Part shown: piece by piece, positions 6,496 to 46,465 of the stretch
Numbering within the stretch: position 1 is the stretch's first letter
How the letters are laid out: each line of letters begins with the position of its first letter
DNA from: Octopus sinensis
Lineage: Eukaryota
Direction of reading: 5' to 3'
Length of the DNA: 64,000 nucleotides
NCBI RefSeq assembly: GCF_006345805.1
Contig: NC_043005.1
Span: 48,856,001-48,920,000, forward strand
Translations under genes and position numbers: made by a program
The notes under the pieces: model-generated
The model's input: only the letters and a program-made list of their open reading frames with translations
Told to the model about the DNA's origin: nothing
Databases searched by the model: none

Positions 6496-6711
6496 ATACA
6501 CTCCTTTTATGAAACAGTGTATCTTGAAGCACATAAGACTACAAATGTCAAAGTGTAAACATTGGGTTGAAGAACCCTATGAATAGAAAAAGGCAATGGC
6601 AGCTCACGTGTTCATTCACACACAAGCACACAAACACAGACACACACATGTTTACATATATTAAGCAGTTCTCTATTTAAGAGATGAGGAATTATATACA
6701 ATATTTACATT

Positions 6712-7015
6712 ATTTACATTTGATGGATATTTGTCCTCATCTTGTTTGTTGTTAACTCTATGGCATAGTGGTTAAGAGCACAGGCTACTAACCCCAAGAT
6801 TCCGAGTTCAATTCCAGGCAGTGACCTGAATAATGATAATAATAATGATAATAATGATGATGATGATAAGAATAATAACATCGAAAAATACCTTAGGAAT
6901 GAGAACCCAGGTTCGAAATTTCCCCAAGACACCTGATGAAGGCTGTAGGGTATATCAGCCGAAACGTTGTGTTAAGAACAAACAAGATGAGGACAAATAT
7001 CCGTCAACTGTAAAT
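6712..7015 (+). mobile_element. tRNA-headed, hammerhead-containing non-autonomous element with a 45-bp terminal inverted repeat (Penelope-like tail)
   Basis: Box A TGGCATAGTGG 6761-6771, box B GAGTTCAATTCC 6804-6815, an (AAT/GAT)n spacer and a hammerhead at 6928-6973. Inverted repeat 6712-6756/6971-7015 matches at 42/45. Confidence 0.75.
6928..6973 (+). ncRNA. Minimal type I hammerhead ribozyme motif
   Basis: Stem I GACAC/GTGTT, core CTGATGA plus one extra A, stem II GGCTG/CAGCC, GAAA, palindromic stem III AC-GT and cleavage triplet GUU. Confidence 0.7.
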
Positions 7016-7176
7016 TATATAAATAATAAATATTATGCATATATAAATGCGTGTGTGTGTGTGCATATGTGCACATACACACATGTATCACCAAGATTTA
7101 TCTTTAAGGTATTCATATATTCTAAAAAAAACATGTATATATGTTTTGTGTGTATGCACGTGTGTGCATGTATGAG

Positions 7177-10154: not shown

Positions 10155-10363
10155 TGTATGTATGTATGTATGTATGTATGTATGTATGTATGTGTGTGTG
10201 TGTATGTATGTGTGTATGTATGGTCTTGCTCACACATACAAAGATACACAGATCACAGATGCATACATTATATTTAAGCTAATTACTATGTCACATTTTG
10301 AATGTTGAATATTCAAAACTTGTAAAAAAATAGTACTAATATATTTTTTTTTTTCTATTGCAG

Positions 10364-11850
10364 AAATGAAGACATAGTGCCTCACACTAGCGAGGATGTA
10401 GGTAAATCTGTGATGTCCCAGAATGCAACATATTCTTCCGATGTAGATAGAAGACATGAAGACATAAGTCACAATAGTCAAAGACAGCTTCCTCCAACAA
10501 CTGCCATTGTTAGCGACATCTCTCAAAGGCATGCTTCCGCTTCTACTGCCACAGCTTCTGTTGAGGAACTAAATGGTCAACAGAGCATTGAAGACGTAAG
10601 TAGTAGATTCTCAGAAATAGCTAATCACAGACAACCAGAAAGTCTCGATCATAGAAACTGTGAAGAATTCAATAGTCGACACCTGGATGAAAGCAGCAAT
10701 AGGCAGGAAGTGGGTTACAGACATGTTAATCAGCTTAATAATCGGCATGTTAACGAACATGCTCTCAGGCACTCCGAAGACTTACACCATAGACATAGTG
10801 ATGGCTCATCTCTAAGAATTACTGCTGAAGAATCGACTCTTAGACATCCAGAGGACCCTAGTTTAAGAAATACTGAGGAATCAATTCTCCGACACTCGGA
10901 CGATAACATGCTTCGACATTCAGACGACTCGATCCTACGCTTACCTGACAGCATCGTACAGAGACACGCTGATGAACTGAATAAATGTCATCCAGGAGAA
11001 ATAAGGCATTCAGAAGATTTAAGACATCAAGACGATTTAAGACATCAAGATGATTTAAGACATCAAGATGATTTGAGACACTCTGAAGAATTGAGACCTC
11101 CTGAAAGCCTGAGGCAATCTGAAGATTTGAGACATTCTGATGATCTCAGACACTCTGATGAGTTGAGACATCCAGAGAATTTGAGACATATTGAGAAGCT
11201 GCGTCACCAAGATAGTTTCAGACATTCAGGAGATCTCAGGCATCCCGATGAAATGCATCATCGAGATGACTCGAGACATCAAGACGACCTCCATCATCCT
11301 GAGAGCCTAAGACATCCGGAAGATCTAAAACACCTCGAAGACTTGCGTCATCCGGATGAATTAAGGCATCCAGATGAGTTGAGCTATCGCCATCCTGACC
11401 AGCTAGGTCTTCTCCATCCAGATACAAAATTGAACCATAGGCGACCAGATGAATTGACACCAAGGATTCCAGATGATCTTCGATGTAGGCAAATGGGTGA
11501 ATTAAGTCATAGGCACTCAGATGAGCTTGGTCATAGACTTTCTGACGATCTTGTACCTCAGTTTCCTCAAGATTTAAGCCCAAATAACTCAGATGATCTC
11601 AGTCCACAGCATTCCATTGATGATTTAAATCTTCGGCATCCTGGATCCGACTTTAGTCAGCGATATCATGATGATTTAAGTTTACGAAACCCAGACTCAT
11701 ATCAGCCAAATGTCAGCAGTTACAACAATATCAGCATCAACGAACTTTCACCTCATACACCTCAATCTATTTCACCTTCATCTCTTCCTGATGTTACATG
11801 TCACCTCAATAATGAGGGTATTTTCGTATGTCACTTATGCAACTTTTCAG
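10364..11850 (+). CDS. hb: hunchback coding exon A: His/Arg/Asp repeat region and first half of N-terminal finger 1; first in-frame ATG at 10413
   Basis: Polypyrimidine acceptor ttttctattgcag ends at 10363. The frame is open to the donor CAG|GTGAGT (11850/11851, phase 1). It ends in FVCHLCNFS, which exon B completes into a C-X2-C-X12-H-X3-H finger. An upstream exon is implied but was not located. Confidence 0.85.
10620..11700 (+). repeat. Coding tandem repeat: 21 LRHxDD/E-type hexapeptides (11001-11378) flanked by degenerate octapeptides
   Basis: Read directly from the translation, with 18-nt periodicity such as ttaagacatcaagatgat. Confidence 0.9.
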
Positions 11851-11859
11851 GTGAGTCTC

Positions 11860-11954
11860 CTTCTTCTTCTTCTTCTTCTTCTTCTTCTTCTTCTTCTTCT
11901 CCTCCTCCTCCTCCTCCTCCTCCTCTTCCTCTTCTCCTCTCCCTCCTCCTTCTT

Positions 11955-12037
<83 letters not shown>

Positions 12038-12120
12038 CATTATTCTAATACTACTATTGCTGCTGCTGTTGCCATGGCCACTAGTGCTGCTACTACTGCT
12101 GCTGCTACTCTTGCTACTGC
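11860..12120. repeat. Compound trinucleotide microsatellite (CTT/CCT/ATT/CTG) right after the exon A donor
   Basis: Directly visible. Confidence 0.95.
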
Positions 12121-12423
12121 CGTTAGTTATATCCTTACTAAATATCCTACTACAAAATAGAATTCTAATTCAAAATTCATGGATAACTTTTCTATTTTGA
12201 TTCTGGAAATCTCTTGAGTTCTCTCATCTTTACCTTCACATTCCTAATGTGCTATTGAAGAATGTATAAGCATAATTATTTCTATTTTACTAGACAAACC
12301 TTATCCTATTTAAATTCTTTGAAAACAACCCTAGCACTGCCAAATTTCAACACTCTAAACCTTTCCATACTGTAATTCTGCTACTAATTCTTCCATTTAC
12401 CATTCATACCTGCCAAAATGGTA

Positions 12424-31330: not shown

Positions 31331-31375
31331 TTCTTATAATATTGTTTTAAAATATACGTATCTTTTTACTTACAG

Positions 31376-34327
31376 GTGGAATTCTGGTCACATGCCCGCT
31401 CTCATATGCGAGAGGATAAAGTCTTGAACTGCCAGTTTTGTCCGTTTGTCACTGAGTATAAGCATCATCTGGAGTATCACCTGCGAAATCATATGGGTTC
31501 AAAGCCATTCAAGTGTAGCCAGTGTAATTACCGCTGCGTTAACAAGTCCATGCTAAACAGTCACATGAAATCACATACTAACGTCTACCCATTTCGTTGT
31601 CAGGATTGTGGATATGCTACTAAATATTGCCACAGCCTGAAGCAGCATCTGGATAAGCTAGGACACATGCCATCCACTGTCCTTAACAGTGATGGCAGCC
31701 TTCCCCAAGGACTCGATAACAATGTTTCTCGGCTGAGATTTGCAAAAGGCCGACGTGTCAAAATAGCGTGCAGGGGTCCGACCCTGCGCAAACCCGATAG
31801 GCGCCAGTATATGCAGGGTGGGTTCTTTCCTATGGGGATGCCACCCCAAGTGATGAATGGAACAGTACTCCCACCATACTGGCATTTAATGAACCAGATG
31901 CCTCCGAATGGCTTTCATCCAGCTGTGCCAAGACCACCCCCGCCACTGATTCCAGTCTCTGGGACGCACTCAGGCGATCCGCACCAACATTCACCTCAAC
32001 AACAACAACAGCAATCACCTTCCCAGCAACAACAGCCACCACCACCACCTCCTCCACAACAACAGCAACCACACCAACAACATCCACCAGCACCACAACA
32101 GTCACCACAACAGCAGCAACCACTACCACACCAGCCACCACTCCAACAGCAACCACAACCACAACAGCAGCAGCCTCTGCAGCCGCCGCATAACCAGCAG
32201 CAACCGCAGCCTCTGCAACCACCTCATCCCCCTCATGCCCCTTCACAACAGCTCTCACAAGGCCAGCAGCACACACAGCAGTCACAGGTTCAACTCCCAA
32301 CACAGCCATCGCAGCAACATCCGCAACAGCTTCCACAGCATCATCATCATACACAGCAACAACATCAACAACAGCAGCAGCAACAACAACAACAGCAACA
32401 ACAGCTCTCCACTCTACAACAGTCTCAGAACCAACAACACCAACAACAACAGCAACCACAACAACAACAACCACAACAACCACCACAACAACCACAACAA
32501 CAACCTCCACAACAACAAATGCAACAACAACAGCAAACACAGCAAGCACAGCAGCATCAGCAGCATCCCCCACAAGATATTTCTGTTTCTACCTCAGTGA
32601 CATCTGTTGTCAATTCAGGCTTGTACAAGTGTACCTTCTGCAGTGTAACAACTGAAACTATGGAAGCCTTGAACAACCACCTCTTAAAAGTTCATGCTGC
32701 AGAGAACCAAGATTTATTTAATGCTTTTGGCATTTCCTCTGAAGCACTCCTTGAAGATCACAATTTGCGATCAACAATGATATCAAATACGTTTAATCAA
32801 CCTGATGTTTCAGACACTAAACGAACAGAAACATCAGATTCAATGTATGGAAGCTCTGATACAAATTTTCAGCAGTCAAACAATGGAAGTCCACAATTTA
32901 CTGATATCAAATCTGACATAAAATCAGAGAATGTTCCACCGAAATCTAATGGTGTGGCTACACATTCCATAATTCAGTCCAGTGAGTCAACATCACCCCA
33001 GGCTAGCACAATCAAACAAATGATGAACCGCTTTGGTATGGGTCCTCTTTCTGCATCTCAAGCCAGCCCTGATGTGCCACAAACAACTGAAATTCCTCTG
33101 GACCTACGTAAACCAAAGTCACCGATCATGTCTACTCCTTTCATAGGTGGTGGTCATGACCTTGAAGGCAGAAATAACAACCTTCCTGGTTCTACTGTTC
33201 AGCCAACAAATGTTCTTACTTCCCCCATCACAAGCATCCATAGCTCTGCGATGACAAACATGAAACGTACTCCTTTTCAAGAAGCCATACCTAAGAAACG
33301 ATCTAGAAAAAGCAGAGCATTTAAGCGAGACACTTTTCAAATAAAATATGAAGACCATCTGTCTATGACAGATGTCGATGAGGAACTTTCTCATGGTAAT
33401 AAAAGCAGTAGTGTTAGCCCAGATGTGCCGCCAGATTGCATGGAACCTCAAACCTCTGAGTGTACATCAGATACAGCAGCATATTCCATGTACTCTGCGG
33501 ATAAGAGAAAGACACCGACTGAAGATTACCCTACTGGATCTTTCCGGTCAACTCCAAGCAACGAAAAGAGTCCACAAGGGACGGAAGAACATGTGATCAG
33601 CTATGAACAGCTTCATAAAAGTTTGCAGATTCTCAATGAAGAACTAGAGCATAAACCAGATATCTCTGGTCATCTTCCTAGCGGTCAGCTCAACGAGAGT
33701 ATGTCAGTTTCACAACAACAACAGCAACAACCTCCTCCTCCTCCTCTTCCTCCCCATCCTTCACAGCAGCCAGTACAGCAAAACCCCCAGCTAACATCAC
33801 AGCAACTCCCACAACCTTCAACATCAGCCTCTGTATCATCCGACAGTGTTTCTGGTGATCTCTTACCTGAACAAATGAATCATTTCTTAAACACATATTA
33901 TAGCCAACAAAATTCTTTGTCAGGGATGCATCGTCGGGGTTCTAAAATTGCAATGCAAATAATCCAAGAGACAGGTAGTAGTAGCCAACACCAAGCAAAC
34001 AATCAAACGCCTCCTTCAAATTCAATGCTACCCCCACAACACAATGGGAATGTTCCCCCATTCAGACGTTACCCCATGAATCCCAATGACGGTGGCAATC
34101 CAAACAATAATAGCAATCCAAAAATGGATCGCAAAAACAAAGATCAAGAGAATGAAGAAACATTTGAGTGTGGGCATTGTGGCATTGTCTACAGAAGTTG
34201 TATAATGTATACCATTCACATGGGCTATCATTGCCAACAAGACCCACTTAAATGCAACATGTGTGGACATCAAAGCAGAGATAAGATAGAGTTTTTTATC
34301 CATATTGCCAGAGCACCCCATGTATAA
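31376..34327 (+). CDS. hb: hunchback terminal coding exon C: central fingers, Q/P-rich tract, extra finger, basic box, two C-terminal fingers
   Basis: Acceptor tctttttacttacag ends at 31375. Contains Hb signatures [50 protein letters not shown] and KCNMCG. TAA stop at 34325-34327. Confidence 0.97.
31981..32570 (+). repeat. Coding Gln/Pro/His-rich low-complexity tract (CAA/CAG/CCA)
   Basis: Translation shows polyQ and QQP repeats between central finger 4 and the extra finger. Confidence 0.9.
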
Positions 34328-46110: not shown

Positions 46111-46465
46111 AGGTGCATGGCTTAGTGGTTAGAGCATCAGGATCACAACCATGAGGTAGTGAGTTCGATTCCTGGGCCGAGCTGTGTGTTGTGTTCTTGA
46201 GCAAGGCACCTTATTTCACGTTGCTCCAGTTCACTCAGCTGTAGAAATGAGTTGCGACATCACAGGTGCCAAGCTGTATTGGCCTTTGCCTTTCCCTCGG
46301 ATAACATTGGTGGCATGGAGAGGGGAGGCTGATATACATGGCTGACTACTGGCCTTACACAAACACCCTTGCCCAGACTTGTGTCTTGGAGGGGAATTTT
46401 CTAGGTGCAATCCCATGATCATTCATGACTGAAGGAGGCCTTCACCCTTTACCCTTACCCTTTAC
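46111..46465 (+). mobile_element. tRNA-derived SINE family C
   Basis: Box A TGGCTTAGTGG 46118-46128, box B GAGTTCGATTCC 46161-46172, a CORE-like ttgagcaaggcacctta segment and a (TTACCC)n-like tail. Confidence 0.8.

What the first reader, a model, noticed from the sequence alone, without database searches (positions are those of the whole stretch)
6712..7015. tRNA-headed element ending in a hammerhead ribozyme: candidate Pol III-driven, Penelope-mobilised 'ribozyme SINE'
Seen: in ~300 bp there is a tRNA-like head (A box 6761, B box 6804, anticodon-like loop CTACTAA), an AAT/GAT spacer and a complete minimal hammerhead (GACAC-CTGATGA-A-GGCTG..CAGCC-GAAAC-GTT-GTGTT). A 45-bp tail is also present inverted directly before the head. 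Known: minimal hammerheads with a palindromic stem III occur in Penelope-like element pLTRs and non-LTR retrozymes and are thought to cleave as dimers. Inverted pLTR pieces at 5' truncations are a PLE hallmark. An extra A after the CUGAUGA core occurs in natural hammerheads, and Schistosoma Sm-alpha is a precedent for tRNA-derived repeats with hammerheads. Inference: this is a non-autonomous tRNA+pLTR chimera that uses Penelope RT/GIY-YIG machinery instead of a LINE, and may yield self-cleaved or circular small RNAs. I cannot confirm whether it has been described in octopus.
Basis: partly seen in the sequence, partly recalled or inferred. Interest (0 to 1): 0.85.

Follow-up and report, generated by a model that had tools for sequence, protein, structure and literature searches.

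The report
Penelope retrotransposon with built-in tRNA promoter
This 300-base repeat is the end piece of a protein-coding Penelope-type jumping gene, and it carries a tRNA-like promoter that likely starts the element's own RNA and likely spins off its many thousands of short, SINE-looking copies.

Summary
The parts are real: tRNA-like A/B boxes, an (AAT)n spacer, a minimal hammerhead and an inverted tail (91 bp, not 45). It is not a separate tRNA+pLTR chimera. The whole unit is the pseudo-LTR of an autonomous Penelope/Poseidon-type element: its GIY-YIG ORF stops about 35 nt before the head, and the tail is the start of the same ~836-codon ORF (ATG at 6899). About 29,000 tail-bearing arms are estimated. 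Penelope mobilisation is well supported: 46 of 85 insertions have an inverted arm, 52 of 56 inverted pairs have one long and one short end, and 22 of 56 have target duplications. The new feature is the promoter: 57 of 81 arms stop within -10..+5 of the head, and the 2.5-kb sense ORF has no T4 run (3-5 expected). A 38%-identical relative has A/B boxes in the same slot; 15 other relatives do not. Pol III initiation is inferred, not shown; a Pol II start or a hairpin stop remains possible. I found no footprint of self-cleavage or circles. New variant of a known kind.

The parts
6666..6756 (-). Inverted arm: 5'-truncated copy of the element's 3' end, carrying the long end with the ~30-nt tail
   Evidence: blastn of the family 3' part, positions 95-185 of 187, 96%; inverted repeat also seen
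6759..7027 (+). Direct arm: pLTR of an autonomous Penelope/Poseidon-type element, from the tRNA-like head to the short 3' end
6759..6829 (+). tRNA-like head (this copy starts at head position 6); A box 6761-6771, B box 6804-6815, A-to-B spacing 44 nt; acceptor stem not paired
   Evidence: no ARAGORN or Rfam call; parent tRNA unresolved
6830..6876 (+). (AAT/GAT)n spacer, variable in length across copies and sometimes interrupted by nested insertions
6899..7015 (+). First 39 codons of the element's RT-GIY-YIG ORF (ATG 6899-6901); the frame reads through the hammerhead
   Evidence: continues into the full ORF in 13 of 30 loci; same frame in a 56%-identical relative, P0003
6928..6973 (+). Minimal type I hammerhead, CUGAUGA core, extra A, loopless palindromic stem III, predicted cut after 6968 (GUU)
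   Evidence: family majority intact
6974..7027 (+). 3' segment up to the short (proximal) end, in the 9-nt repeat; lacks the distal tail carried by the inverted arm

Best explanation
The unit is the pseudo-LTR of an autonomous Penelope/Poseidon-type retrotransposon, and its tRNA-like A/B boxes likely act as an internal RNA polymerase III promoter that likely sets the 5' end of the element's RNA. Shown: order ORF stop - ~35 nt - head - (AAT)n - ATG - hammerhead - tail - rest of ORF; pile-up of copy 5' ends at the head; paired long and short 3' ends; target duplications. Inferred: the element's RT-endonuclease nicks both target strands about 9-12 nt apart and primes cDNA on uncleaved RNA at two start sites about 30 nt apart, one per strand. 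When it primes in the upstream pLTR, the cDNA runs only ~290 nt to the RNA's 5' end, giving SINE-looking copies, and two such cDNAs join head to head. By analogy with the Anolis element PAc, which needs ORF sequence beyond the start site, solo copies would be dead ends rather than SINE masters. The hammerhead is likely not needed for insertion.
For: pLTR identity: GIY-YIG ORF upstream of the head in 26 of 30 loci picked on an upstream 23-mer (>=100 nt shared); 9 of 30 RT-bearing loci end in the head at the expected distance; the tail runs into the ORF in 13 of 30 loci, three of them near-duplicates; a 551-aa open frame in L286; 1,703 RT homologues. Start site: 57 of 81 arms reaching +5 end within -10..+5, 4.7%/nt against 0.1-0.2 in the ORF and 0.6 inside the head; 25 of the 57 have no inverted arm directly beside them; full-length L308 starts at the head. 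Pol III: canonical A/B spacing with TATAAG 41 nt before the A box; 0 T4 runs in 2,502 nt of sense ORF against 2.95-5.0 expected (P 0.001-0.024), while a Neptune-type family of the same base make-up has 6 in 1,791 nt; relative L320 (38% identity) has TATAAG, A box, B box, AAT-rich spacer and hammerhead in the same order; the A/B pattern hit only L320 in 238 kb of relatives, chance 0.07 per strand. Mechanism: 52 of 56 pairs long+short, 0 long+long, P 4e-12; duplications >=8 nt in 22 of 56 against 2.4% in controls; neither arm is nested in the other (27/17/8 of 52); the distal end lies 93-95 nt past the cut site, against 85-92 in PAc (PMC11167929).
Against: No transcript evidence: RNA reads of a related species cover the pLTR on both strands equally, 79% run into unrelated flanks, and no ends pile up. 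5' ends are spread over ~15 nt, not one base, and a 5-bp hairpin lies at the same place. TATAAG could serve Pol II. T4 scarcity is only moderately specific: L349 has 0 in 1,350 nt, L324 and L339 have 1 in 1,650; L320 has 2 T4 runs early in its ORF; L341, in the same clade, has 19 in 2 kb. Uncapped Pol III RNA would translate poorly (general knowledge), so the protein may need a Pol II RNA. The family is ~6-7% diverged and looks inactive. The requirement for downstream ORF sequence rests on one in vitro system.
Confidence: 0.55

Rival explanations
1. Same autonomous element, but the head is a passenger: an old tRNA-SINE piece in the 3' UTR. The pile-up comes from a Pol II start behind TATAAG, or from RT stalling and cDNA joining at the small palindrome just before the head.
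For: TATAAG lies ~30 nt before the pile-up; 8 of 15 other relatives have a TATA-like word 29-43 nt before the hammerhead, several of them near-copies of each other; many head-to-head joints sit on the palindrome; D. virilis Penelope has a LINE-like internal promoter (PMC2377424 abstract); other tRNA-SINEs are common in this genome (window 46118).
Against: 25 of 57 head-start arms have no inverted arm directly beside them; the T4-free sense strand; the same A/B layout in L320 with a different head sequence.
Confidence: 0.25
2. One reading: short copies are a true SINE. They are transcribed by Pol III on their own and re-mobilised in trans by the Penelope protein.
For: Short copies far outnumber ORF copies (4,938 head 20-mers against 925 upstream 23-mers); they keep A/B boxes, lack T4 and carry target duplications.
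Against: Identical majority sequence in 28 ORF-linked and 95 short arms, no diagnostic change; about half of all arms lack the distal tail, yet pairs carry both end types, so templates held both start sites; PAc needs ORF sequence downstream of the start site. A rapid burst from young solo copies would not be detected by my test.
Confidence: 0.15
3. A non-LTR retrozyme: tandem copies self-cleave as dimers and circularise, and the circles are reverse transcribed.
For: Intact minimal hammerhead in the majority sequence and in 72 of 246 arms; retrozymes are published as pLTR derivatives (bioRxiv 10.64898/2026.07.22.740005).
Against: At most 10 same-strand neighbours among 230 pieces, several only split copies (not de-duplicated); copies are not circularly permuted; no excess of 5' ends at the cut site (19 vs 30).
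Confidence: 0.05

Closest known systems
Poseidon of Anolis carolinensis (PAc; PMC11167929, first two of four parts read)
   Same: Single RT + C-terminal GIY-YIG ORF; hammerhead overlapping the ORF start; two RT start sites giving an optional 30-40-nt tail; both target strands cut and extended; uncleaved RNA as template.
   Different: No tRNA-like promoter is described for PAc; here the ATG lies 34 nt upstream of the core, not inside it; here long and short ends are strictly paired within an insertion, whereas PAc showed no strand difference in vitro.
Minimal hammerheads of metazoan PLEs (PMC4209133, first two of four parts read)
   Same: Extra base between positions 9 and 10.1, G10.1-C11.1 pair, palindromic loopless stem III, mostly single dispersed motifs.
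   Different: That text has no mention of tRNA, molluscs or octopus; the cut triplet here is GUU.
Schistosoma Sm-alpha / Sj-alpha (known here only through passages of review PMC6765202)
   Same: Pol III-type promoter followed by a hammerhead in a short repeat.
   Different: Described as non-coding tandem SINE-like repeats cut free by the ribozyme; here the unit is part of a coding element and copies are head-to-head, not tandem.
Non-LTR retrozymes (PMC7229834 passages; bioRxiv 10.64898/2026.07.22.740005 main text)
   Same: Short, hammerhead-bearing, related to PLE pLTRs.
   Different: Defined by tandem units and circles; neither is seen here. The preprint sampled no mollusc and describes no tRNA head.
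TRIMp3: Cassandra, Helenus, Ajax (PMC10886601 passages)
   Same: A small-RNA-derived Pol III promoter inside a terminal repeat, proposed to arise from a SINE insertion.
   Different: Those are non-autonomous LTR elements, and the author argues that their autonomous partners must use Pol II; here the promoter-like head sits in the repeat of the autonomous element itself.
Octopus tRNA-SINEs of Ohshima and Okada 1994 (title seen in reference lists only; the names OK, OR1, OR2 are recalled)
   Same: tRNA-derived heads in an octopus.
   Different: Sequences not available here, so identity with one of them is untested.

Membership tests
EN+ Penelope-like element | Single ORF with RT and C-terminal GIY-YIG endonuclease | tested here: met
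   551-aa open frame in L286; ~836-codon ORF from copies; homologues carry PF00078/PF26215. Pfam itself gave no hit on L286 at E<=0.001; GIY-YIG read from recalled motifs.
EN+ Penelope-like element | pLTR: a 5'-truncated copy directly before a full ORF | tested here: met
   13 of 30 loci, e.g. L308, L311
EN+ Penelope-like element | Inverted 5'-truncated arm | tested here: met
   46 of 85 tail-selected insertions
EN+ Penelope-like element | Optional 30-40-nt tail, often at one end only | tested here: met
   Bimodal ends, 104 short and 93 long; 52 of 56 pairs mixed
EN+ Penelope-like element | Hammerhead in the pLTR | tested here: met
Penelope/Poseidon clade | No Zn-finger-like linker between RT and EN (unlike Neptune and Nematis) | tested here: met
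   No CX2-5CXXC in L286, present in L038; criterion from PMC8557442 passages
Penelope/Poseidon clade | RT tree placement with named reference elements | not testable with these tools
   No Repbase references on hand; the quick tree holds unnamed relatives only
tRNA-SINE (SINE2) | tRNA-derived head with A and B boxes | tested here: met
   parent isotype unresolved among 42 tRNA sequences of 7 isotypes
tRNA-SINE (SINE2) | Transcribed by Pol III | not testable with these tools
   Indirect only; mRNA-type reads uninformative
tRNA-SINE (SINE2) | Non-autonomous lineage distinct from its partner, sharing only the 3' end | tested here: not met
   The whole unit is part of the autonomous element; identical majority sequence in 28 ORF-linked and 95 short arms
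Non-LTR retrozyme | Head-to-tail tandem units, each with a hammerhead | tested here: not met
Non-LTR retrozyme | Self-cleaved, circular RNA | tested here: inconclusive
   No cut-site joint among the listed joints and no end pile-up (weak library type); no genomic footprint
Minimal type I hammerhead | Core, stems I and II, palindromic stem III; stems kept through sequence change | tested here: met
   L320 keeps paired stems with a different sequence. Copies within the family decay without compensation.
Minimal type I hammerhead | Cleavage as a dimer | not testable with these tools
   Needs an assay; the dimer minimum-energy fold did not give the double-hammerhead form

The most novel reading that the evidence does not exclude
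Some autonomous Penelope elements have swapped their Pol II promoter for a tRNA-type Pol III promoter and purged T-runs, so that Pol III reads the whole 2.8-kb unit. This happened in, or is shared by, at least two distant lineages, and such elements shed their own SINE-like copies: an autonomous, Pol III-driven retrotransposon and a direct route from a Penelope element to a SINE.
Probability: 0.3. Interest if true: 0.85.

Novelty: new variant of a known kind. Interest (0 to 1): 0.62.

Why it matters
Pol III promoters in retroelements are known from non-autonomous SINEs and TRIMs; Kojima (PMC10886601) argues that the autonomous partners of such TRIMs must use Pol II. A coding Penelope element with A/B boxes at its RNA start would be an exception, and it offers an origin for Pol III + hammerhead repeats such as Sm-alpha. 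It also means that part of what pipelines call tRNA-SINEs in this genome is Penelope pLTR. Apart from the promoter, the family is a large natural data set on how Penelope elements insert: strict long/short end pairing, 9-12-bp duplications and non-nested arms point to coupled priming on both strands, which the PAc system can test directly.

Tried and rejected
1) GIY-YIG Pfam search returned mostly other PLE families; none of 30 loci matched the element. The partner was found instead by walking upstream of the head. 2) I first read the ORF from the ATG inside the core; some searches showed the frame starts 34 nt upstream, so a search built on the wrong frame (22 hits) found only short copies. 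3) Cut-site footprint: 19 vs 30; no enrichment after allowing for pattern stringency. An apparent cluster near the site in the small sample is confounded by a palindrome. 4) My first A/B pattern missed the window itself; it was widened and rerun. 5) The first codon-shuffle control used only 139 codons; redone. 6) The first pair count was not de-duplicated (60 of 64); one search is the one used. 7) Viral contigs: no relative. 8) PDB: nothing at E<0.1. 9) Sequencing-run search: no RNA holder listed. 10) Parent tRNA: top scores tie. 11) A clade-wide Pol III trait: rejected for the T-run feature by L341. 12) Earlier scan notes: none. 13) No clear target duplication read at the window copy itself. 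Literature: 10 searches used found no description of a PLE with a tRNA-type promoter or of this family. Repbase, Dfam, subscription papers, Ferbeyre 1998 and Lunse 2016 were not available, and bioRxiv supplements are closed, so a database entry may exist.

Full report
OBSERVATION. A hammerhead descriptor finds this one site in the window and none in 20 shuffles. Rfam and ARAGORN call neither a hammerhead nor a tRNA, and the fold is not unusually stable, so the case rests on motif order and family data. The inverted arm is 91 bp (6666-6756) and the direct arm runs 6759-7027.

FAMILY. Exact counts in G000 are 761 for the 46-nt hammerhead, 9,889 for a tail 24-mer and 4,938 for a head 20-mer. From the share of sampled copies that match exactly (48 of 141; 42 of 139) this gives about 29,000 tail-bearing arms and 16,000 heads, probably low because the samples favour good matches. 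Arms are about 6-7% from the majority sequence, and 72 of 246 keep the whole catalytic core. 23 of 30 head-selected loci are followed by the 3' part within 200 nt; most of the rest are head-only inverted arms or interrupted copies.

WHAT IT IS. Some heads continue upstream into a shared sequence (925 exact 23-mers). In 26 of 30 such loci it extends at least 100 nt and encodes the end of a GIY-YIG endonuclease, with RT motifs further up; the stop lies about 35 nt before the head. From the other side, 9 of 30 RT-bearing loci end in the head at the expected distance, and in 13 of 30 loci picked on the ORF's 5' part the tail runs straight into the ORF (three of these are near-duplicates). The ORF starts at window 6899, reads through the hammerhead and is about 836 codons long; L286 holds 551 open codons. 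A 56%-identical relative reads through its hammerhead in the same frame (P0003). The linker lacks the Neptune-type cysteine motif. So the unit is the pLTR of an autonomous Penelope/Poseidon-type element; the clade name rests on motifs, not on named references. ORF-linked (28) and short (95) arms give the same majority sequence with no diagnostic change.

HOW COPIES WERE MADE. 46 of 85 insertions picked only on the tail have an inverted arm on their 5' side. 3' ends fall in two groups about 30 nt apart, 104 short and 93 long. Of 56 distinct inverted pairs, 52 have one of each, 4 two short and none two long (P 4e-12). The window copy fits: long inverted arm, short direct arm. 22 of 56 pairs are framed by a shared word of 8 nt or more, mostly 9-12, against 2.4% in re-paired controls, so a pair is one event. 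The short arm reaches further 5' in 27, the long arm in 17, and they tie in 8 of 52, so neither is simply a copy of the other. This fits two primings, one per target strand (inference). For PAc, both strands are cut and extended, RT starts at internal sites that define the tail, the template needs 172 nt of ORF, and hammerhead mutants still insert (PMC11167929). The distal end here is 93-95 nt past the cut site, against 85-92 in PAc. A tail at one end only is already described (PMC8557442 passages).

THE HEAD. Among arms not picked on upstream sequence, 57 of 81 that reach +5 stop within -10..+5: 4.7% per nt, against 0.6 inside the head and 0.1-0.2 in the ORF. 25 of the 57 have no inverted arm directly beside them; their ends spread from -10 to +5. 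One full-length copy, L308, also starts there. A and B boxes are 44 nt apart, with TATAAG 41 nt before the A box. The sense ORF has no run of four T in 2,502 nt; four shuffling schemes expect 2.95-5.0 (P 0.001-0.024), and a Neptune-type family of like composition has 6 in 1,791 nt. Nine single copies have 0-4 each. L320, an intact tandem unit of 2,791 nt at 38% identity from a metagenome contig, has TATAAG, A box, B box, an AAT-rich spacer and a hammerhead in the same order, with a different head. The A/B pattern hit only L320 in 238 kb from 51 relative loci (chance 0.07 per strand). Of 16 relatives with the stop-to-hammerhead stretch held, only L320 has a B box; 8 of the other 15 have a TATA-like word 29-43 nt before the core (several are near-copies). 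In a quick tree the two fall in one 21-row clade (SH-aLRT 99) but are not sisters, so one origin or two is open.

AGAINST. No RNA evidence for Pol III. Raw reads from three runs of one study of a related species (about 6% of each run read) and contigs of a fourth run were laid. The pLTR is deeply covered on both strands, 78-79% of reads run on into unlike sequence, the ORF is some 200-fold lower, and no ends pile up: copies riding in host transcripts, in libraries poor at catching such RNA. A small hairpin sits at the pile-up and many joints use it. T-run scarcity is not unique: L349 has 0 in 1,350 nt, L324 and L339 have 1 in 1,650, L320 has two early in its ORF, and L341 in the same clade has 19. 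The parent tRNA could not be named.

RIBOZYME. It matches the published minimal PLE hammerhead, including the extra base after the core (PMC4209133), a type that cleaves poorly in vitro. Truncations exactly at the cut site number 19 against 30 at a control site, and head-to-tail arrays are rare. Nothing here shows cleavage or circles.

KNOWN VERSUS NEW. Known: PLE pLTRs with hammerheads, inverted arms and tails; retrozymes as pLTR derivatives (bioRxiv 10.64898/2026.07.22.740005, parts 1-3 of 5 read); Pol III + hammerhead repeats in Schistosoma (review passages); Pol III promoters in non-autonomous LTR elements (passages). The 2026 O. vulgaris annotation lists Penelope and SINE families without such detail (part 1 of 3 and one supplement searched). 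Passages only were read of PMC8969392, PMC7229834, PMC8967140, PMC6685494 and PMC3531059, and the abstract of PMC2377424. Ten searches found no PLE with a tRNA-type promoter; Repbase, Dfam and most subscription papers were out of reach.

VERDICT. pLTR of an autonomous PLE: about 0.95. Short copies as run-offs to the RNA's 5' end: about 0.75. Pol III as the cause: about 0.55 overall. New variant of a known kind; interest 0.62.

Noticed in passing
window 10326-12200 and 31340-34327 (+): Two long exons of a C2H2 zinc-finger gene that resembles hunchback (resemblance recalled, not searched); the element lies about 3.3 kb upstream of the first.
   Followed up: no
window 46111-46450 (+): A different tRNA-headed repeat with A/B boxes (46118-46171), closest to host tRNA-Thr(AGT) among those sampled; similar copies in L313 and L317.
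   Followed up: partly
L320 1416-1731 and 4207-4522: Intact tandem PLE unit of 2,791 nt with an A/B-box head 12 nt longer between the boxes than a plain tRNA, as if from an intron-bearing tRNA.
   Followed up: partly
L035, L037, L038, L047, L050-L053, L059: A young Neptune-type family (open frames up to ~780 aa) whose hammerhead core reads UUGAUAA instead of CUGAUGA; some subfamilies have 3' UTRs with repeated CCAAT-like words.
   Followed up: no
L061, L072, L073, L077, L087: Other repeats inserted in or beside the (AAT)n spacer; the spacer appears to be a target for elements that end in AAT repeats.
   Followed up: no
L339-L370: Animal-type Penelope elements lie on contigs filed under bacterial and archaeal MAGs, pointing to host DNA in those bins.
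   Followed up: no
family 3' part, window 7010-7027: A 9-nt repeat varies from 0 to 4 units in whole codons and keeps the ORF frame; the short 3' end falls in it.
   Followed up: partly
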